Shown here in pieces: positions 10,986-46,177 of a stretch of DNA of 64,000 nt (position 1 is the first letter of the stretch; each line of letters begins with the position of its first letter). This stretch comes from Alphaproteobacteria bacterium. GTDB taxonomy: Bacteria > Pseudomonadota > Alphaproteobacteria > SMXQ01. The position numbers and the translations under genes are program-made. The notes beneath the pieces are model-generated. The model ran no database searches. It saw only the letters and a list, made by a program, of their open reading frames with translations, and was not told where the DNA came from. The stretch lies in contig WHSO01000006.1 in NCBI GenBank assembly GCA_009380075.1, positions 13,930 through 77,929 of the forward strand. Reading direction: 5' to 3'.

Positions 10986-11529
10986 CGTATCGCTCCTCCC
11001 CGGAATTTGTGTTTTTCTACAGAGGGATATCTCCGTTCCCAACAGAAAAATTCTACCATGAATCACCCCACCCCGCGCTAAGATTGACGTACATCGGCAT
11101 CGCGACCGAAGAGTCGCCATCGGCCCGGAAAGGACGCTTTGCGTCTTAGGGTACGAAACATCAAATGCCGGAAGGGGGGTGACCATGATGACGTCAGAAC
11201 AGAATGAACGGCTGACCCGCGTCGGGCCGGGTACGCCGTGTGGCGACATGCTGCGGCGTTACTGGTGGCCCGTGGGATTTGGTTCCCACATCACATCCAA
11301 GCCCGTGCCGGTGCGCATCCTTGGCGAAGACCTCATCCTCTTCCGCGACGGTTCGGGTGCGCTGGGGCTGATCGAGCGCGCCTGCCCGCACCGCGGCGCC
11401 GGGCTCGAACTCGGCCGTGTCGAAAGCGATGGCATCCGCTGCTGCTACCACGGCTGGAAGTTCGACCGTGCCGGCAACTGCCTCGACATGCCGGCGGAGC
11501 CCGACGATACGCCGCTGAAGCGCGAGGTG
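10644..11529. repeat. 199-bp inverted repeat (10644-10842 and 11331-11529) inside the two Rieske genes
   Basis: Manual alignment: 7 mismatches in 199 bp; first 75 bp identical. Confidence 0.9.
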
Positions 11530-37782: not shown

Positions 37783-40044
<2,262 letters not shown>

Positions 40045-40155
40045 ACATTGTCAATGGGAACGGACCGATGCGGAGATGGGCGCGATGCCTGTGTTCCGCG
40101 GACCCCGGCGATGGGGATGAAAATCCCTTTCGGGTCTGTGCTATAAGCGGCCCGG

Positions 40156-40232
40156 GCGCCCGTAGCTCAGCCGGATAGAGCACAGGATTCCTAATCCTGG
40201 GGTCGTGGGTTCGAATCCCGCCGGGCGCGCCA
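40156..40232 (+). tRNA. tRNA-Arg (anticodon CCT)
   Basis: Acceptor stem GCGCCCG/CGGGCGC, D arm AGCTCAGCCGGATAGAGC, anticodon arm CAGGA-TTCCTAA-TCCTG, T loop GTTCGAATC, encoded CCA. Confidence 0.97.
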
Positions 40233-40489
40233 TCATCCCGATTGGACGAACGCCATCGTTTCCCGATTTTTTAAGCTTGATGTGAGGGGACACTTAGTAT
40301 GGACTCTCGGGGGACCCGGCGGTTAGGGGTGGATAAGGGCAAATAACGGCGGCTGGCTGCGGTGTCCAGGGCAGCGGGGCGCGCACTGCGAATCGTTCTT
40401 AAGCGCCAGTTGCGCGACGACGGCGCCACATAAAATGGAGTCGCCGGGAATCGGCGGAAGCGGCGCAGGCTGGGCGAGTCGGGAAAATG

Positions 40490-40626
40490 GACGACTCAAT
40501 ATTCACACCATTAAAGAGTCGTTACGACTCTTTAATCGACGAACGACTCTAAATTCAAGAAAGCGCAGAAAACCGCGCCGACTGGTGAGGTCGGCGCGGT
40601 TTTGAGTAACGGAATATTGAGTCGTC
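40490..40626. repeat. Nested inverted-repeat element
   Basis: Perfect 15-bp outer IR GACGACTCAATATTC (40490-40504 and 40612-40626) enclosing a 13-bp palindrome (40510-40536) and a 14-bp hairpin (40569-40603). Confidence 0.9.
40569..40603. terminator. Probable bidirectional terminator hairpin
   Basis: AAAACCGCGCCGAC-TGGTGAG-GTCGGCGCGGTTTT, about 50 bp past the stop of the leftward repressor operon. Confidence 0.6.
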
Positions 40627-40652
40627 GATGCCCGATTAAACGGGCCTTGTCA

Positions 40653-41018
40653 TCAGGGGCGGGCGCGCCACGCCGCGATCCGCACCAGCTGCTCGATCTG
40701 GCAGCCTTCGCCGTGCGGCACCATCAGATTCACGATGACGTTGTTATCCCCAATGACGACGGTGGCCCGCGCGCCGCCGACGGCGGGCGAGCGCGCCCCG
40801 GCGCCCGGGCCCCCTTCGCCGTCTTGCCCTGGCTTCTGTTCGCCCGGCACCAGGTCATCGAGCAGTGCCTGCATGCGGGTTCGCCTCACATCCAGAGATT
40901 CAGCCATAGTGCCCCCACTGCCTTGCGGCTCGGCCGGTTGAACTTCTCCCACGGTGTCAGGGTCGCTCCCGCGAATTAACAGTTCGTAAACGAGCCGCAG
41001 ACTCAGGGGTGCCGCCAT
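40653..41018 (-). CDS. Hypothetical protein downstream of the repressor (phage immunity region-like)
   Basis: GGAG RBS just after the repressor stop; contains a VVIGDNNVIV segment; alternative start at 40907. Confidence 0.55.
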   Translation of the reverse strand: MAAPLSLRLVYELLIRGSDPDTVGEVQPAEPQGSGGTMAESLDVRRTRMQALLDDLVPGEQKPGQDGEGGPGAGARSPAVGGARATVVIGDNNVIVNLMVPHGEGCQIEQLVRIAAWRARP

Positions 41019-41029
41019 GTCGATGGCTC

Positions 41030-41530
41030 CTATTCCAGGGCGTCCAGGAGTTCGAGCAGCCGGGCCGCGGAATCGGCCTTAGCCTGGCCGCCGGCGGGGG
41101 GCTCCAGCAGCTCGGCGTAAAGATGGGCGATCCAGAGGGCCTTTCTCTCCGGGGTCATCGTCCGGCCGACCTTGGACAAATGCCCCTCAAGCATCCCGAT
41201 CGCGTTCACCAGGACGCCGTGGTCAACGGAATTGGCGCCCCGTCCGGCTGCAGCGCGCTCGGCCTGGGCCGCGCTCAGCGTGCCGCCCATCAGCTCGAAA
41301 GCCGCCAGCGCCTTGGCGTCGTCCGTATCCTTCAGCCGCTGCCATAGGAGCGGGAAGAGGGGTTCCCCCGTCACAGCCGAGAGACGTGCCAAAAAATCAA
41401 CGTCGGGGGTGCTCTCCCCGCGCTCGTACATACCCAGGGTATTGGGGTGAATGCCCACATCAGGCGCGAAGTCTTTGATCGACTTGCCGGTTTTAGTACG
41501 TGCCTCGCGGATGAGGTCGCCCAAGGTCAT
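41030..41530 (-). CDS. XRE/Cro-CI family HTH repressor
   Basis: LGDLIREAR..SIKDFAPDVGIHPNTLGMYERGESTPDVDFL; no S24 peptidase domain apparent. Confidence 0.9.
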   Translation of the reverse strand: MTLGDLIREARTKTGKSIKDFAPDVGIHPNTLGMYERGESTPDVDFLARLSAVTGEPLFPLLWQRLKDTDDAKALAAFELMGGTLSAAQAERAAAGRGANSVDHGVLVNAIGMLEGHLSKVGRTMTPERKALWIAHLYAELLEPPAGGQAKADSAARLLELLDALE

Positions 41531-41553
41531 GTGCTGTTAACCTCGTTCTTGTG

Positions 41554-41583
41554 TTGACTCGATACAAAGACTTGGGTTATCAT
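41554..41583 (+). promoter_or_regulatory. Sigma70-type promoter for the ner-like gene, probably leaderless
   Basis: TTGACT-N18-TATCAT with the ATG 7 nt downstream; the -35 box overlaps a GACTC site. Confidence 0.6.
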
Positions 41584-41590
41584 CCGCTCC

Positions 41591-41914
41591 ATGCAAATTA
41601 ACACCTTAATCAATGACATCCCAAAAAAGCCCGCCCTACGGCGGGAGTGGATCAAGTACCAGTTCCGCCTGCGCGGCTATTCGGTGCACGCATTCGCGGA
41701 GAGCATCGGCGTCCGGCCCCCGGCGGTCTCGAACGCCTTCTGGAAGCCTTCGAGCCACATCCAGCAGGAGATAGCCGACTTCCTGGGCATCCCGCCGGGG
41801 GTGCTGTTCCCGGAGTTCTACACCGACGACGGCCGCCTGATCCCAGGGACGAAACCTCGCAACCGTAGCCGCAAGCCGACGAAGAGTCACCGTTCAAAAG
41901 GACGGGCGGCATGA
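41591..41914 (+). CDS. Ner/Nlp-like DNA-binding protein (Mu-like phage Cro analogue)
   Basis: WIKYQFRLRGYSVHAFAESIGV..AVSNAF..IADFLGIPPGVLFPEFY; divergent from the repressor. Confidence 0.85.
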   Translation: MQINTLINDIPKKPALRREWIKYQFRLRGYSVHAFAESIGVRPPAVSNAFWKPSSHIQQEIADFLGIPPGVLFPEFYTDDGRLIPGTKPRNRSRKPTKSHRSKGRAA

Positions 41915-42081
41915 ACACGGCGGCGGCCTTCCTTGACACTCTTCGCCGGGGAGCAGCGACCCCGGCAAGGCCCTGCGCGGCGGGCGTGTGCCGCGCACGC
42001 TTACCTGCCCAAAAATCCATGGGCGGTTCCTCTCCGACACTTGAACCCCCGATCCGGCTGAGGGAAGGGGGGTTCGCCTGA
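41911..42081 (+). CDS. Short ORF (56 aa) coupled to the ner-like gene, possibly a phage remnant
   Basis: ATGA overlap with the ner stop; MNTAAAFLDTLRRG..GGFA; no recognisable domain. Confidence 0.35.
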   Translation: MNTAAAFLDTLRRGAATPARPCAAGVCRARLPAQKSMGGSSPTLEPPIRLREGGFA

Positions 42082-42153
42082 AATAAGCAGGAATACCCCC
42101 AAGGCGCCCGCAGCGGGCACGGCAGATATCGTCGGAAGTCGGATTAGCGGCGT

Positions 42154-43152
42154 TCAGGTCTTCGCCACCCGGCTCCCGTTGCGGCGGTGCCACGCCACGG
42201 CGGTCGTGACGATCGTGTCGATATCCGACATCTCCGGCTGCCAGCCCAGCTCGCGCCGTGCTTTCGATGCGTCGGCAATGAGCATGGGCGGGTCCCCGGC
42301 GCGGCGCGGGCCGATCCGGAAGGGCCGCTCCGATCCGCAGGCGCGGGCGACGGCGGCGGCGATCTCGAGCACCGTGGTGCCTTGTCCGGTGCCGAGGTTG
42401 AAGGCATGAAAGCCCGACCGGCCGAGGATCCATTCTCCAGCCAGAACATGGGCCCGCGCCAGGTCATCGACATGGATGTAATCGCGCACCGCACTGCCGT
42501 CGCGGGTATCGAAATCGTTGCCGAAGACGGTGAACGGCTGGTTGTCCGACAGCGCGCCGGCGATGGCGAGCGGAATGGCATGGGTTTCGGGCTCGTGGCA
42601 TTCGCCGATGTCGCCCTCGGCGTCGCAGCCCGCGGCGTTGAAGTAGCGCAGCGCCACGCTGGCGAGTCCGTAGGCCGGCGCGAAGTCCGCGAGCATGCGT
42701 TCGATCACGAGCTTCGACCAGCCGTAGGGATTGACCGGCCATTGCGGATGGTGCTCTCCGATCGGGATGTGCTTGGGAACGCCGTAGGTCGCGCAGGTGC
42801 TTGAGAAGATGAGCTTGGAGACGCCGCCCGCCCGCATGCGCTCCAGCAAGGTGAAGGTGCCGAGGCAGTTGTTGCGGTAATAGAGCTCGGGCTCCTTGAC
42901 CGATTCCTCCACATAGGCGAAGGCCGCAAAATGCGCGACGAGGTCGGGCTTGTAGGCGGCAAGCGCCGCATCCACGGCGGCGGCGTCGGCGATATCGCCG
43001 TCGACCAGCGGTCCCCACTTCACCGCCTCGGCATGCCCGCGCGACAGGTTGTCGAAGGTCACGACTTTCCACCCGGCACGCGCGAAGGCCTTGCAGCAAT
43101 GCGACCCGACATAGCCGGCACCGCCCGTCACCAGGATCGTTCGCTCGCTCAC
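42154..43152 (-). CDS. galE: UDP-glucose 4-epimerase
   Basis: VTGGAGYVGSH, FSSTCATYG, NPYGWSK, LRYFNAAG and RDYIHVDDLA. Confidence 0.95.
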   Translation of the reverse strand: MSERTILVTGGAGYVGSHCCKAFARAGWKVVTFDNLSRGHAEAVKWGPLVDGDIADAAAVDAALAAYKPDLVAHFAAFAYVEESVKEPELYYRNNCLGTFTLLERMRAGGVSKLIFSSTCATYGVPKHIPIGEHHPQWPVNPYGWSKLVIERMLADFAPAYGLASVALRYFNAAGCDAEGDIGECHEPETHAIPLAIAGALSDNQPFTVFGNDFDTRDGSAVRDYIHVDDLARAHVLAGEWILGRSGFHAFNLGTGQGTTVLEIAAAVARACGSERPFRIGPRRAGDPPMLIADASKARRELGWQPEMSDIDTIVTTAVAWHRRNGSRVAKT

Positions 43153-43406
43153 GCCGGTATCCTGCCCTTCTCCATCCGTTGCCGGAAACAGCCGATCGTC
43201 TTCCGCCGGCTGTCCTCCGGCTTCCCGAAACCGCTATAACCCGTATCCCTGCCGGGCACAACGAAGACCCGGGGCCCTTCATTTGGACCGCGGGCGTGCA
43301 GTGTATCCCGGCTGCTGTTGGTCGAGGGAACCGGACGAACGTTAGTATCGCATCATTGAGCTTTTCTTAACGGCGGGACACGCGCGCAGGTTGTCAGAGG
43401 GGCGAG

Positions 43407-44273
43407 TCACGTCTTCTCGCAGACGAAGACCTTTTCACCGAAGGTGAAGCCGAAGCGGATCGCGTCCGCGCCCTCGCCAGTGAATTCGCGCAAGGCGAAG
43501 CCCGCATCGCGCACGCGGTCGCGGAAATCGGCGCCGTAGCGCCGCACGTGGTCCTTCTGTCCGAAATGCAGCTCGCGCGTGCCGGGATCGCGGACCTGTG
43601 GGTCCTCGTAGGTCCGGCGGCAACCCTCGGCCAGCGGCACCATCGCTACCAGACGCCCGCCGGGCATGAGCACCCGGCGGATCTCCGCGAGCGCCCGGCG
43701 GTCGTCCACGTGTTCGAGCACGTGGGAACACAGCACCGTGTCGAAGGTCCCGTCGGGCACATCCATGTTTTCGATATCGAGCTGGATATCGGCGGTCGGG
43801 TCGGCGATGTCGGCGGAGACGTAGAGCAGGCAGGACTGGCGCAGGGTGGTCGCGATCAGCGGCTCGGGCGCGAAATGCAGAAGCGCCTTCGCCTCCCGCA
43901 GGATGCCGTGGGAGCGGTCGACGTAAGCCAGCAGGCGGTGGCGCTCGAGCGCGCCGCAACAGGGGCAGCGCGCTTCCGGCCGCGGCGGCAGCCCGAACGG
44001 CAGGAAACGTCCCGCGAAGCCGCAGAGCGGACAGACGTGGTCGTGGCGCGGCTCCAGACTGGCGAGGATGCTGAGCGCATAGTCGTCGTCGACGCAGGCC
44101 TCCCCCGATACCAGGTATCGGGCGAGGCGAAGGCGCCGCTTGCCCCTCCGGACGGCCGCGATGGCCTTCGCCGCGGCCCGCCCGCGTGCGTTCCGGGCGG
44201 CGGCGGCCGTGGTCCGGAGGACACCGCTCAGCAGGGGCAATCGTTCGAAGTTCCGTTCGACCATGACGCGCAC
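43407..44273 (-). CDS. Class I SAM-dependent methyltransferase with a Cys-rich N-terminal region
   Basis: [30 protein letters not shown] and FGQKDHVR; start codon uncertain. Confidence 0.85.
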
Positions 44274-44432: not shown

Positions 44433-45023
44433 ATGTTCCAACGTCTTGCCGCAGTCCTCGCTTCGCTCCTCGTCACTTTTGGCCTTACCATCGCCCCTAT
44501 GTCCACCGCCACCGCCGCCGATAACGCACCACGCGTCAGGCTCACCACCAACATGGGCGCCATCGTCCTCGAGCTCGATGCCGCGCGCGCGCCCAAGACG
44601 GTGGAGAACTTCCTCACCTACGTCCGCGCCGGGTTCTACGACGGCACCATCTTCCACCGCGTCATCCGCGGCTTCATGATCCAGGGCGGCGGCATGGTGC
44701 CGGGGCTGGAGCGCAAGCCGACGCGCGGGCCGATCCCCAACGAGGCCGACAACGGGCTGAAGAATGTCGCCGGCACCATCGCCATGGCGCGCACCGGCGA
44801 CCCGCATTCGGCGACGGCGCAGTTCTTCATCAACACCGTCGACAACCGGGCCCTCGATCATCGGGACAAGTCGCCGCAGGGCTGGGGCTATACCGTCTTC
44901 GGCCGCGTCATCGAGGGCATGGACGTGGTGCGCATCATCGAGGGCGGGCCGACGGGGCCGTCCGCCGGCTTCATGGACGTGCCGACGTCCGACGTGATCA
45001 TCACCAAGGCGGAAATTCTCTAG
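44433..45023 (+). CDS. Cyclophilin-type peptidyl-prolyl isomerase (secreted)
   Basis: [40 protein letters not shown] and GYTVFGRV. Confidence 0.95.
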
Positions 45024-45997
45024 ATCCCCAGCGCCTTGAGCTGCCCTTCCGGGTAGCGGGTGCCGCGGGCGGCATCGTCGGGGAAGGCGGCGCCGAGGCG
45101 CGCGACCTCGTCGGCGCTGAGAGCAACGTCGGCGGCGGCCGCATTCTCGGCGACATGGGCGGGCCGATGCCCGCCGGGAATCGACACCACCCCTTGGGCC
45201 GCGAGCCACGCCAGGGCGATCTGGGCCGGCGTCGCGCCCCTGGCCTTCGCGATCTCCCGGACCGTGCCGAGGAGTGCGAGGTTATGGTCGAAGTTCTCGG
45301 GCGCGTAGCGCGGCATGTCGCGACGGCGGTCCTTGGCGTGGAGGTCGTCGGGGCTGGCGAAGCGGCCGGTCAGGAACCCGCGGCCGAGCGGCGCATAGGC
45401 GACGAAGGCGATGCCGAGGTCGCGGCAGGTCGGCAGGATGTCCGCTTCCGGGAACCGCGACCACAGCGAGTATTCCGTCTGCAGCGCGGCGATGGGATGC
45501 GTTGCGTGGGCGCGGCGGATGGTGGCGGGGCCCGCCTCCGACAGGCCGAGCGCGCGGACCTTGCCGGCCTCGACCAGACGGGCCATGGCGCCGACGGTCT
45601 CCTCGATCGGCGTGTCGGGATCGACCCGGTGCTGGTAGAACACGTCGATGACGTCGGTCTGAAGGCGGTGGAGGCAGGCGTCGGCCGCCTCGGCCACGTA
45701 TTCCGGCCGGCCGTTCACCGCGCGGCGCCCGTCGGGGTAGCGGATGTTGCCGAACTTGGTGGCGAGGATGACCTTGTCGCGCCGGCCCCGGAGGGCGCGG
45801 CCGAGGAATTCCTCGTTCTTGCCGTCGGCATAGGCGTCGGAGGTATCGAGGAAATTGGCGCCGGCGTCGATGGCCGCGTCGATGGCCTTCAGGTTCTCGG
45901 TCTCGTCGGGCGGCGAATAGATCGGCGTCATGCCCATGCAGCCGAGCCCGATGACGGGCACCCGCACAAGGGTTGCTTTTAGTTGAATGCTTTTCAT
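45020..45997 (-). CDS. Aldo/keto reductase
   Basis: GLGCMGM, DTSDAY, LATKFG, YQHRVDP and QTEYSLWSR. Confidence 0.94.
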
Positions 45998-46177
45998 CGC
46001 AGGTCTCCGCTTGGTCGGTGGTGGATGGGCGGGACGCGTGCTGAACGAAAACGCCGTTGCGGCCGGATTCCCGATTGATTTCAATTCGTTGCGACCCTGC
46101 TCGGCGCGCTGGAAATCGGGTTTCGTTCTGTTATGTTACGTCAGAATTATACAGAAAAATCAACGGGAGACGACAAA

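What the first reader, a model, noticed from the sequence alone, without database searches (positions are those of the whole stretch)
40233..42140. Stand-alone repressor/Ner bistable switch with a distal repeat array: candidate domesticated phage epigenetic switch
Seen: an intact XRE repressor and Ner-like gene diverge across only 60 bp, each followed by one small ORF, with no integrase, MuA/MuB or virion genes. The ner -35 region TTGACTCGATAC contains GANTC and resembles the array motif ACGACTCAATAT about 1 kb away, at the end of the repressor operon. Known: c/ner pairs form the lysis-lysogeny switch of Mu-like phages, and lambda CI loops between distant operators. Inference: the retained switch could give superinfection immunity against Mu-like phages, or act as a methylation-gated looping toggle on host genes such as the adjacent galE and methyltransferase.
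Basis: partly seen in the sequence, partly recalled or inferred. Interest (0 to 1): 0.7.

Follow-up and report, generated by a model that had tools for sequence, protein, structure and literature searches.

The report
Transposase-less mini-Mu carrying an immunity switch
The repressor/Ner gene pair is not a domesticated host switch but the cargo of a 1.76-kb cut-down Mu-like transposable phage that recently jumped in next to a tRNA gene and has kept both phage ends but no transposase.

Summary
An intact XRE repressor (41030-41530, -) and a Ner-family gene (41591-41914, +) diverge across 60 bp. A genome-unique array of five 15-bp sites (40490-40626) lies behind the repressor operon. No transposase or virion genes were found.

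Contigs of about 98-99% identical strains in three sediment metagenome runs join 40275 directly to 42040. The extra DNA (40281-42039, 1759 bp) starts TG, ends CA and is flanked by a 5-bp duplication, CTTGA. These are the marks of Mu-type transposition. Its left end is 71-80% identical to the left end of a MuA/MuB-encoding prophage in a congener.

It is therefore a recently inserted, non-autonomous mini-Mu carrying only the immunity region. It is not a conserved, domesticated module: Ner matched none of 60 relatives and the repressor only one weak HTH hit. galE and the small-molecule methyltransferase are not part of it.

The claimed likeness between the ner -35 region and the array motif is at chance level. 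The array is real and has a positional counterpart, with a different motif, in the congener's phage. The element's left end is also the densest GANTC (CcrM site) cluster in the genome. The array's function remains open.

The parts
40156..40232 (+). tRNA-Arg(CCT). Host context, not part of the element. The element starts 48 bp downstream, just past a T-run.
   Evidence: ARAGORN; Rfam tRNA 69 bits.
40276..40280 (.). Left copy of the 5-bp target-site duplication CTTGA.
   Evidence: the empty-site joint 40275|42040 has 5 letters that fit either side.
40281..42039 (+). The whole element: a 1759-bp non-autonomous Mu-like element (mini-Mu) that starts TG and ends CA.
   Evidence: Contigs in runs X1, X2 and X3 skip exactly 1764 bp. 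Termini and length were read.
40281..40497 (+). Left end, homologous to the left end of a MuA/MuB prophage in congener G003. It holds three direct repeats with an ATGGA core (at 40299, 40435 and 40487), proposed as transposase-binding sites L1-L3.
   Evidence: 71% identity over 40283-40350 and 80% over 40377-40489 to G003:C40. Repeats. Transposase binding is inferred.
40490..40626 (.). Array of five 15-bp sites with core ACGACTCWWWAWT, at 40490(+), 40509(-), 40523(+), 40542(+) and 40612(-). Sites 2 and 3 form a 27-bp perfect palindrome; sites 1 and 5 form an 18-bp inverted pair. Every site contains GANTC.
   Evidence: 5 of 5 genome-wide occurrences. As a single strand 40480-40635 folds with z = -9.8. 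A positional counterpart with a different motif exists in G003.
40569..40603 (.). GC-rich hairpin (14-bp perfect stem) with T-runs on both strands: a bidirectional terminator ending the repressor operon.
   Evidence: Inverted repeat I7; fold. The simple terminator scan did not list it because the T-run is short.
40653..41018 (-). orf121, co-oriented with the repressor and 11 nt downstream of it, with AGGAG before its ATG. An orphan of unknown function; a gene caller starts it at residue 49.
   Evidence: No Pfam, PHROG or NCBIfam family. Only itself among 5.8 billion proteins. Atlas model pLDDT 0.32. GC3 0.75-0.85.
41030..41530 (-). c-type repressor: an XRE helix-turn-helix plus a helical C-terminal domain, with no S24 peptidase domain.
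   Evidence: Pfam HTH_3. 386 HMMER hits, of which 14 chosen relatives of 152-184 aa are 28-37% identical in the alignment. Model pLDDT 87; the HTH resembles SinR, P22 C2 and DdrO, all matches weaker than E 0.001. Relatives of its HTH lie beside MuA/MuB in viral and metagenome contigs.
41531..41590 (.). Divergent control region. Early promoter Pe: TTGACT (41554) N18 TATCAT (ends 41583). A 19-bp imperfect palindrome at 41548-41566 covers the -35 and is the candidate operator. The ner ATG lies 7-8 nt after the -10, so the ner mRNA is probably leaderless.
   Evidence: The -10/start stretch 41575-41591 matches G003's early promoter at 16 of 17 positions. The operator and the leaderless start are inferred.
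41591..41914 (+). Ner-family (HTH_35) regulator.
41911..42081 (+). orf56, a doubtful gene. Its start overlaps the ner stop (ATGA) and it crosses the element's right end. Positions 41940-42000 are 80% identical to a stretch behind the first early gene of G003's phage, where a 38-codon frame sits in the same register.
42001..42039 (+). Right end: at most about 40 bp beyond the early-region homology. It holds one inverted ATGGA-core site (42016-42020) and ends in CA. Read inward, it aligns imperfectly with the left terminus.
42040..42044 (.). Right copy of the 5-bp target-site duplication CTTGA.

Best explanation
Window 40281-42039 is a 1759-bp, transposase-less derivative of a Mu-like transposable phage: a natural mini-Mu. 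It entered by Mu-type transposition into the AT-rich spacer 48 bp downstream of tRNA-Arg and duplicated the 5-bp target CTTGA.

It keeps both phage termini (5'-TG...CA-3') and, from left to right:
- a left end of about 210 bp with three repeated sites;
- a five-site repeat array around a terminator;
- the leftward operon of the c-type XRE repressor and orf121;
- the divergent early promoter Pe with its candidate operator;
- ner.
After about 125 bp more it reaches a right end of about 40 bp. Everything from the gene after ner to the right end (MuA, MuB, late genes) is missing.

How it probably works (inferred from phage Mu and its relatives):
- c represses Pe, and Ner counteracts c, so the element holds a self-contained c/Ner circuit with nothing lytic left to control.
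- c made from it should shut down incoming phages of the same immunity type.
- A heteroimmune relative with matching ends, such as the G003-type phage, could supply MuA/MuB in trans and move or amplify it.

I cannot tell whether it arrived already cut down (my estimate about 50%) or as a whole prophage that then lost about 35 kb in place (about 40%).

The array is a conserved architectural part of this phage group's left end and changes specificity together with the immunity cassette. I read it as a set of protein-binding sites. In my order of preference the candidates are:
1. a transposition enhancer or accessory site for the transposase N-terminal domain, or a site for orf121;
2. a regulator or host factor sensitive to CcrM methylation;
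3. a distal operator of c or Ner (least likely).
For: Shown:
- Empty site. Contigs in 3 of the 4 runs laid (X1, X2, X3) join 40275 to 42040. X2 record 12 (2696 nt) covers 40204-40275 and then 42040-43600 with 28 differences in 1561 nt. X1 record 5 has 5 differences in 516 nt.
- CTTGA stands on both sides, the element starts TG and ends CA, and it is 1759 bp long.
- Left-end homology to G003:C40 (one search gives the identities). There the end is followed by a CI-like S24 repressor, a CII-like gene, an 802-aa transposase (rve + Mu-transpos_C; phrog_310 E 2e-98) and a MuB-like ATPase (phrog_296 E 1.7e-38). G003 also has Mu-type portal genes.
- Further homology patches at the Pe -10 (16 of 17 positions) and at 41940-42000 (80%).
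- Among contigs fetched with an alignment of this repressor and five relatives, 6 of the 8 viral loci and 3 of the 12 metagenome loci also encode MuA and/or MuB homologues. The other nine metagenome loci are 1.1-9 kb. L036 also has a Ner homologue at 30% identity, and L054 has a two-domain XRE divergent from the MuA side beside a 99-aa ORF that I read by eye as Ner-like (no BLASTP alignment to this Ner).
- The own genome has no MuA, no Mu portal and only one copy of c, of ner and of the left end.
- Array: 5 of 5 genome-wide motif hits lie here. In G003, 3 of 4 genome-wide GATTCCYTTTT hits lie at the equivalent place, with the same 33-bp spacing of the GANTC cores.
- GANTC: 10 sites in 350 bp, the genome maximum (mean 0.83, next best 7). 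The CcrM orthologue matches 6PBD at E 3.6e-162.

From the literature (passages of PMC3145075 seen): Mu needs the L and R ends plus an enhancer about 1 kb from L that overlaps the c operators. Engineered mini-Mu(LER) units are exactly such L-E-R derivatives, moved by MuA/MuB supplied in trans.
Against: - No right end of a full relative is available for comparison. The right end here is short (about 40 bp, one ATGGA-core site), whereas Mu uses several R sites (recalled), so mobility may be poor.
- The L/R terminal inverted repeat is imperfect: 10 of the first 30 positions match without gaps, more with a 2-nt gap.
- There is only one copy in the genome. Apart from the 113-nt left-end patch in G003, no related copy turned up in the 30 other genomes of the order (left-end query), the 400 class genomes (whole element; only three stray hits of 36-48 nt), or the exact 22-mer scans of the viral, genome and metagenome collections. 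So there is no direct sign that the cut-down form has moved more than once.
- No protein binding, transcription or immunity was tested.
- The TSD CTTGA fits Mu's recalled target consensus N-Y-(G/C)-R-N at 2 of its 3 informative positions.
- The parent phage's transposase is unknown.
Confidence: 0.85

Rival explanations
1. In-place decay with no function. A full Mu-like prophage transposed into this site and later lost about 35 kb by one internal deletion. What remains is an inert remnant, and its ORFs are intact only because too little time has passed.
For: - Any internal deletion keeps both termini and the TSD, so fit this equally well.
- The insertion is recent, since strains 98-99% identical have the empty site. 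Intact ORFs are therefore no evidence of selection.
- There is a single copy, and no second insertion of the cut-down form was found anywhere searched.
- The right end is very short.
Against: - The right deletion endpoint would have to fall within about 40-100 bp of the terminus of a phage of about 37 kb without removing it. That is roughly 0.1-0.3% for a random endpoint (inference).
- No contig in X1-X4 shows a full prophage at this site, but contigs cannot show absence.
- The promoter, Shine-Dalgarno sequences, terminator and both regulators are all intact.
Confidence: 0.4
2. One reading: a domesticated, stand-alone bistable switch kept by the host. The repressor would loop between the c-ner operator and the distal array, gated by GANTC methylation, to control host genes such as galE and the methyltransferase.
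For: - c and ner are intact and divergent.
- Every array site and the Pe -35 contain GANTC, the left end is the genome's densest GANTC cluster, and CcrM is present.
- Transcription from Pe would run out of the right end antisense to galE, with no + strand terminator found in 41914-42200.
Against: - No clear homologue in the 60 relatives searched: Ner 0 of 60, the repressor one weak hit of 60. The empty site is present in near-identical strains. So there is no conservation and hence no domestication.
- The array motif does not occur in the control region (rank 622, -0.25 bits).
- G003's control region likewise lacks its own array motif: GATTCC/GGAATC positions include none in 11150-11330.
- The methyltransferase is a small-molecule type.
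- The boundaries are transposon ends with a TSD.
Confidence: 0.05
3. A remnant of a tRNA-targeting genomic island or integrase-type prophage, with the array as arm-type integrase/excisionase sites of an old attL.
For: - It lies next to a tRNA gene, at a locus that varies between congeners. katG, galE, the methyltransferase and a CDF transporter come and go here.
- The repeats lie 250-400 bp from the tRNA.
Against: - No integrase is present.
- No repeat of the tRNA 3' end was found. The only similar stretch is a 16-nt, 88% match inside ner.
- The insertion lies 48 bp beyond the tRNA with a 5-bp TSD and TG...CA ends.
- The homologous end in G003 belongs to a MuA/MuB element.
Confidence: 0.03

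Closest known systems
Left end and immunity region of phage Mu and Mu-like transposable phages (Mu, D108; Pseudomonas D3112/B3 group)
   Same: - Order of parts: terminus, repeated end sites, leftward repressor, divergent operator/early promoter, then ner.
- TG...CA termini and a 5-bp target duplication.
- A Ner-family protein, 41% identical to D3112-group Ner-like proteins.
   Different: - No A or B transposition genes and no late genes; the total length is 1.76 kb.
- The repressor is an XRE HTH protein with a helical C-terminal domain, not the winged-helix Mu c type (recalled).
- There is an extra orphan gene behind c.
- A five-site GANTC-bearing array lies between the end sites and the repressor operon. 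I know of no described counterpart in Mu (recalled; nothing found in the listings).
Engineered mini-Mu(LER) units (PMC3145075; passages seen)
   Same: - The L end, the operator/enhancer region about 1 kb in, and the R end are kept, and the phage genes are deleted.
- Such units depend on MuA/MuB supplied in trans.
   Different: - This one is natural and carries a working-looking c and ner.
- Its R end is about 40 bp.
- The place of its enhancer is unknown.
- Two full-text searches (listings only) turned up no description of a naturally occurring mini-Mu.
The Mu-like prophage in congener G003 (contig C40)
   Same: - Homologous left end (71-80%), early-promoter -10, and the stretch behind the first early gene.
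- A genome-unique repeat array at the same place with the same 33-bp spacing.
- Also inserted 39-41 bp downstream of a tRNA gene (tRNA-Ser).
   Different: - It has MuA, MuB, a CII-like gene and an S24 CI-type repressor.
- Its first early gene is an unrelated 88-aa protein instead of Ner.
- Its array motif is GATTCCYTTTT instead of ACGACTCWWWAWT.
Cryptic-prophage repressor remnants and host Ner-like proteins (for example E. coli Nlp/SfsB; recalled)
   Same: Phage-type regulators left in a chromosome without the phage.
   Different: - Those are conserved across strains. This one is a strain-level insertion with transposon ends.
- The match to the SfsB model is only E 0.064, far below its cut-off.

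Membership tests
Mu-type (DDE, MuA-family) transposable element | Termini 5'-TG...CA-3' | tested here: met
   The element starts TG at 40281 and ends CA at 42039.
Mu-type (DDE, MuA-family) transposable element | 5-bp target-site duplication, with an empty site in a close relative | tested here: met
   CTTGA stands at 40276-40280 and at 42040-42044. The joint 40275|42040 appears in contigs of 3 of the 4 runs laid.
Mu-type (DDE, MuA-family) transposable element | Repeated transposase-binding sites at both ends, inverted between L and R | tested here: inconclusive
   Three direct ATGGA-core repeats in L (19, 155 and 207 nt from the end) and one inverted copy 20 nt from the R end. No binding data and no cognate transposase.
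Mu-type (DDE, MuA-family) transposable element | Encodes MuA transposase and the MuB ATPase (autonomy) | tested here: not met
   Neither is in the element or in the 3.54-Mb genome. So the element is non-autonomous. It is of Mu descent by its ends and by homology to G003's MuA/MuB element.
Mu-like phage immunity module (c / ner) | Leftward repressor and rightward Ner-family gene, divergent from one control region next to the left end | tested here: met
   The same arrangement with MuA/MuB is seen in L036, and L054 shows it with MuA.
Ner family (Pfam HTH_35, PF13693) | Profile match above the curated cut-off | tested here: met
   40.7 bits against a cut-off of 25; phrog_769 E 1.4e-16. No solved structure matched by sequence.
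SOS-cleavable CI/LexA-type repressors | C-terminal S24 peptidase domain | tested here: not met
   Only HTH families matched. The model is all-helical. G003's repressor does have S24.
Lambda-type long-range operator looping (OL-OR) | The same operator motif at the promoter and at the distal site | tested here: not met
   The best intergenic score is -0.25 to 1.4 bits against 24-25 bits for the array sites.
Domesticated prophage module | Conserved at the same locus in relatives, under purifying selection | tested here: not met
   Ner matched 0 of 60 relatives. The repressor matched 1 of 60, weakly (E 6.4e-4, 24% identity, a 321-aa frame in another family). The site is empty in about 98-99% identical strains. 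dN/dS is impossible because no homologue close enough exists.
tRNA-integrating island (tyrosine recombinase) | An integrase gene and a direct repeat of the tRNA 3' end | tested here: not met
   There is no integrase ORF between katG and the methyltransferase, no significant tRNA-end repeat, and the insertion lies outside the tRNA.

The most novel reading that the evidence does not exclude
The element is a mobile 'immunity satellite' of transposable phages: a natural mini-Mu that spreads by borrowing MuA/MuB, and perhaps headful packaging, from heteroimmune helper phages that share its ends. Its own repressor would shut out phages of its own immunity type. Its left-end array would be an immunity-specific enhancer or operator whose occupancy is set by CcrM methylation of GANTC, tying transposition or expression to the replication state of the alphaproteobacterial cell cycle, much as Dam does for IS10 and Tn5.
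Probability: 0.2. Interest if true: 0.8.

Novelty: new variant of a known kind. Interest (0 to 1): 0.55.

Why it matters
Mini-Mu elements are a laboratory tool. A natural one, caught as a strain-level insertion with an intact immunity switch, would show that transposable phages can give rise to non-autonomous hitchhikers, as insertion sequences give rise to MITEs and other phages have satellites. It would also be a compact, self-contained c/Ner circuit with no lethal genes, which is convenient for testing bistability.

Two side observations can be tested directly:
- The immunity cassette of this phage group comes with its own array of sites behind the repressor operon, with a different motif in each phage.
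- The left end is the strongest cluster of CcrM sites in the genome.

If the element is merely a decaying remnant, the finding is ordinary prophage decay.

Tried and rejected
- galE as part of the same island. I inferred this from G002 and G003, where tRNA-Arg is followed after 36-47 bp by the methyltransferase. I rejected it, because the empty-site strain keeps galE.
- A right end resembling the left end. None was found with a 24-mer or 20-mer at up to 3 mismatches in the window, G000 or G003, nor by local alignment to 43153-43420 or 42060-42160, where scores stayed within the shuffles. The true right end was found only through the empty-site joint.
- The right-end 25-mer in G003: no match.
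- Close relatives of c, Ner and orf121 by word search in 5.8 billion proteins: each found only itself.
- Single-protein scans of genome and viral contigs: nothing. One search gave one weak 26-residue hit that I did not follow.
- The exact 22-mer of the left end: only G003's contig plus one chance hit inside a coding region of an unrelated low-GC contig. It was absent from viral and metagenome contigs.
- The whole element against 400 class genomes: only 36-48-nt stray hits.
- orf121 against the ORF behind the repressor of L054: a 12-residue match at E 0.061, not evidence of homology. The window Ner against L054's Ner-like ORF: no BLASTP alignment.
- G007's weak tblastx hit to orf121 lies in a CDF transporter and is noise.
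- Rfam found only the tRNA.
- Foldseek with the repressor model: no match at E <= 0.001, only generic XRE HTH domains.
- RNA evidence: no RNA holder was listed.
- Cover inside the element in X1-X4 is patchy and at most depth 3.9. I did not interpret it.
- I found no convincing promoter for the repressor by eye in 41531-41680.
Full report
WHAT IS THERE

From left to right the region reads:
- katG (37783-40002, -);
- tRNA-Arg(CCT) (40156-40232, +);
- a cluster of short repeats around a GC-rich hairpin (40490-40626);
- a 121-codon ORF (40653-41018, -);
- an XRE/HTH_3 protein of 166 aa (41030-41530, -);
- a 60-bp gap;
- an HTH_35 (Ner-family) protein of 107 aa (41591-41914, +);
- a 56-codon frame overlapping its stop (41911-42081, +);
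- a GalE-type epimerase (42154-43152, -);
- a Methyltransf_11 protein (43407-44273, -).

The Ner call is solid. Pfam gives 40.7 bits against a cut-off of 25, and phrog_769 gives E 1.4e-16. tblastn finds 116 phage records, 111 of them Pseudomonas phages, with 41% identity to genes annotated as Ner-like. The methyltransferase is a small-molecule class I enzyme, not a DNA methyltransferase.

THE MODULE IS NOT CONSERVED

c and ner are single-copy in the own genome. With the Ner protein as query, 0 of 60 relatives matched, including 7 of the same genus and 23 more of the family. With the repressor as query, one weak match in another family was the only hit. A word-indexed search of 5.8 billion proteins returned only the query itself for c, for Ner and for orf121.

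In two congeners (G002, G003) tRNA-Arg is followed after 36-47 bp by the methyltransferase. In G001, G006 and G007 the locus differs again: katG and the methyltransferase are absent, and G007 has a CDF transporter there. The spot is a variable one.

A MU-LIKE LEFT END

A 113-nt stretch just right of the tRNA (40377-40489) is 80% identical to G003 contig C40. Side by side, the two sequences are homologous from a shared terminus (TGAGGGGACA...) over about 205 bp.

In G003 this end sits 39-41 bp after a tRNA-Ser. It is followed by a repeat array, a CI-like HTH+S24 repressor on the minus strand, an early promoter, an 88-aa ORF and a CII-like regulator (phrog_2345). Then come an 802-aa transposase (rve, Mu-transpos_C; phrog_310 E 2e-98) and a MuB-like ATPase (phrog_296). 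G003 also has two Mu-type portal genes. The own genome has neither portal nor MuA.

Two further short patches are shared: 16 of 17 nt at the early-promoter -10/start (41575-41591), and 80% over 41940-42000.

A full HMMER search gave 386 relatives of the repressor. An alignment of 14 of them (152-184 aa, plus one of 199 aa) shows 28-37% identity and a shared helical C-terminal domain.

With an alignment of the repressor and five of these as query, 6 of the 8 viral loci and 3 of the 12 metagenome loci also encode MuA and/or MuB homologues. The other nine metagenome loci are 1.1-9 kb. L036 adds a Ner homologue (30% identity). L054 shows a two-domain XRE of this family divergent from the MuA side, beside a 99-aa ORF that I read by eye as Ner-like. 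The module therefore belongs to transposable phages.

THE DECISIVE RESULT

I laid Logan contigs of four sediment-metagenome runs on 39900-43600. In three of them (X1, X2, X3; depth 3.7-11.6) a contig joins 40275 directly to 42040, skipping 1764 bases, with 5 letters that fit either side.
- X2 record 12 (2696 nt) covers 40204-40275 without a difference and then 42040-43600 with 28 differences in 1561 nt.
- X1 record 5 has 5 differences in 516 nt.

These are strains of about 98-99% identity that have tRNA-Arg, galE and the methyltransferase but lack the element. Reading the sequence confirms CTTGA at 40276-40280 and again at 42040-42044. Between them lies a 1759-bp element that begins TG and ends CA.

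TG...CA termini with a 5-bp target duplication are the signature of Mu-type transposition (established knowledge; the TG/CA termini are named in the reference list of PMC3145075). Read inward, the two termini align imperfectly. An ATGGA core sits about 19-20 nt from each end, and two more direct copies lie at 155 and 207 nt in the left end. This spacing recalls Mu's L1-L3 (recalled).

This result corrected an earlier inference of mine. galE is not part of the insertion. Its absence from this locus in G002 and G003 is a separate and older difference.

WHAT IT IS

It is a non-autonomous, cut-down Mu-like element that keeps both ends and only the immunity region. In Mu the cis requirements for transposition are the L and R ends plus an enhancer about 1 kb from L that overlaps the c operators. 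Engineered mini-Mu(LER) units are such derivatives, moved by MuA/MuB supplied in trans (passages of PMC3145075). The natural element has the same layout.

Two full-text searches gave no description of a naturally occurring mini-Mu (listings only).

I cannot decide whether it transposed in its present form with a helper or is a full prophage that lost about 35 kb in place. Both keep the termini and the duplication. The right deletion endpoint lies only about 40 bp from the terminus, which is unlikely for a random deletion. That improbability applies to the formation of the derivative in either scenario. No second copy was found.

THE SWITCH

Pe is the one promoter-like site found in 40200-42200, against 0.2 expected. 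A 19-bp imperfect palindrome (41548-41566) covers its -35 and is the natural candidate operator. The ner ATG follows the -10 by 7-8 nt with no Shine-Dalgarno sequence, so the mRNA is probably leaderless. The repressor has a GAGG upstream of its start codon. I did not find a convincing repressor promoter.

The repressor has no S24 domain. If it is inducible at all, that is not through RecA-type self-cleavage.

That c represses Pe and that Ner opposes c is inferred from Mu, not shown. Because the insertion is recent, intact frames are not evidence of selection.

THE ARRAY

Five 15-bp sites (core ACGACTCWWWAWT) lie at 40490(+), 40509(-), 40523(+), 40542(+) and 40612(-). A sixth, degenerate copy at 40476 lies in the conserved end.
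- The motif occurs five times in the whole genome, all here.
- Sites 2 and 3 form a perfect 27-bp palindrome with cores 10 bp apart.
- Sites 1 and 5 form an 18-bp inverted pair around the terminator.
- The single strand folds far better than shuffles (z = -9.8). However, the terminator lies inside the outer stem, so terminated transcripts of either strand could not form it. I therefore favour a role at the DNA level.

Since c and Ner must act at Pe/Pc, the motif's absence there argues against either being the array's main binder. This is an inference.

G003 has an array at the same position with the same 33-bp spacing of its GANTC cores but another motif, GATTCCYTTTT. Three of its four genome-wide copies lie there; the fourth is in a coding region. 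It goes with another repressor type and another first early gene. G003's control region also lacks its own array motif.

The array is therefore a conserved architectural feature whose specificity changes along with the immunity cassette, while the end sites stay alike. Mu and D108 offer a parallel: their ends are alike, but the operators/enhancer and the transposase N-terminus differ (recalled). That is why an enhancer-type role ranks first for me. With n = 2, this is a lead and not a result.

METHYLATION

The genome encodes a CcrM orthologue of 381 aa, matching 6PBD at E 3.6e-162. The 350 bp at the element's left end hold 10 GANTC sites. The genome mean is 0.83 and the next best window has 7. 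G003's left end has 7 in about 300 bp, four of them at aligned positions.

Control of transposon ends and promoters by Dam methylation (IS10, Tn5; recalled) is the obvious analogy. It is untested here.

VERDICT

The 'domesticated looping switch' reading is not supported.

The best-supported explanation is a recently inserted, transposase-less mini-Mu that carries a c/Ner immunity module and an unexplained, GANTC-rich site array. I put about 0.85 on this identity and give no firm figure for function.

Noticed in passing
window 40233-40280; L019 9859-9899: Both members of this phage group found so far sit 39-48 bp downstream of a tRNA gene: tRNA-Arg here and tRNA-Ser in G003. Here the insertion lies just past a T-run in the most AT-rich stretch of the region (GC 0.53). 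For random insertion this would be a rare coincidence. It may reflect a MuB-like preference for AT-rich DNA or a real target preference.
   Followed up: partly
window 40281-40630; genome-wide scan: The element's left end is the densest GANTC (CcrM site) cluster in the 3.54-Mb genome, with 10 sites in 350 bp against a mean of 0.83 and a next best of 7. A CcrM orthologue lies on contig C77 (L032 1417-2562).
   Followed up: partly
window 42045-43400: The GalE-type epimerase and its flanks are missing between tRNA-Arg and the methyltransferase in congeners G002 and G003. The protein is only 51-58% identical to the congeners' galE at other loci, whereas neighbouring genes are 72-90% identical. This looks like a separate, older acquisition.
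   Followed up: partly
window 45020-46084: The aldo-keto reductase gene has no counterpart at this place in G002 and G003 but is present in G001. katG is present next to the tRNA in G000, G002 and G003 but not in G001 or G007. The whole neighbourhood of this tRNA varies in gene content.
   Followed up: no
window 41630-41645 (- strand): A terminator-like hairpin with a T-run lies on the minus strand inside the 5' part of the ner coding sequence. It could shield the repressor promoter region from leftward read-through, for example from galE.
   Followed up: no
window 41911-42000; L019 11600-11716: A short frame overlapping the stop of the first early gene (ATGA here, TGATG in G003) is shared by both phages at 80% nucleotide identity, although the genes before it are unrelated. 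It is either a conserved micro-ORF or a cis element. In G003 it ends in a hairpin with a T-run.
   Followed up: partly
L054 4234-5750: A lower-GC metagenomic Mu-like phage has the same two-domain XRE repressor type divergent from a 99-aa ORF that I read by eye as Ner-like (no family scan; no BLASTP alignment to the window's Ner), with a CII-like gene and MuA beyond it. An ORF behind its repressor shares a short motif of the form 'TVVIG, then N or D, then N' with orf121 (12 residues, E 0.061). This is too weak to call homology.
   Followed up: partly
table 7 (X2, place 40768): A low-depth contig matches orf121 from 40768 rightwards but differs to the left of it. Related c/orf121 sequences in another context may exist in the same sediments and could be the parent or a helper phage.
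   Followed up: no
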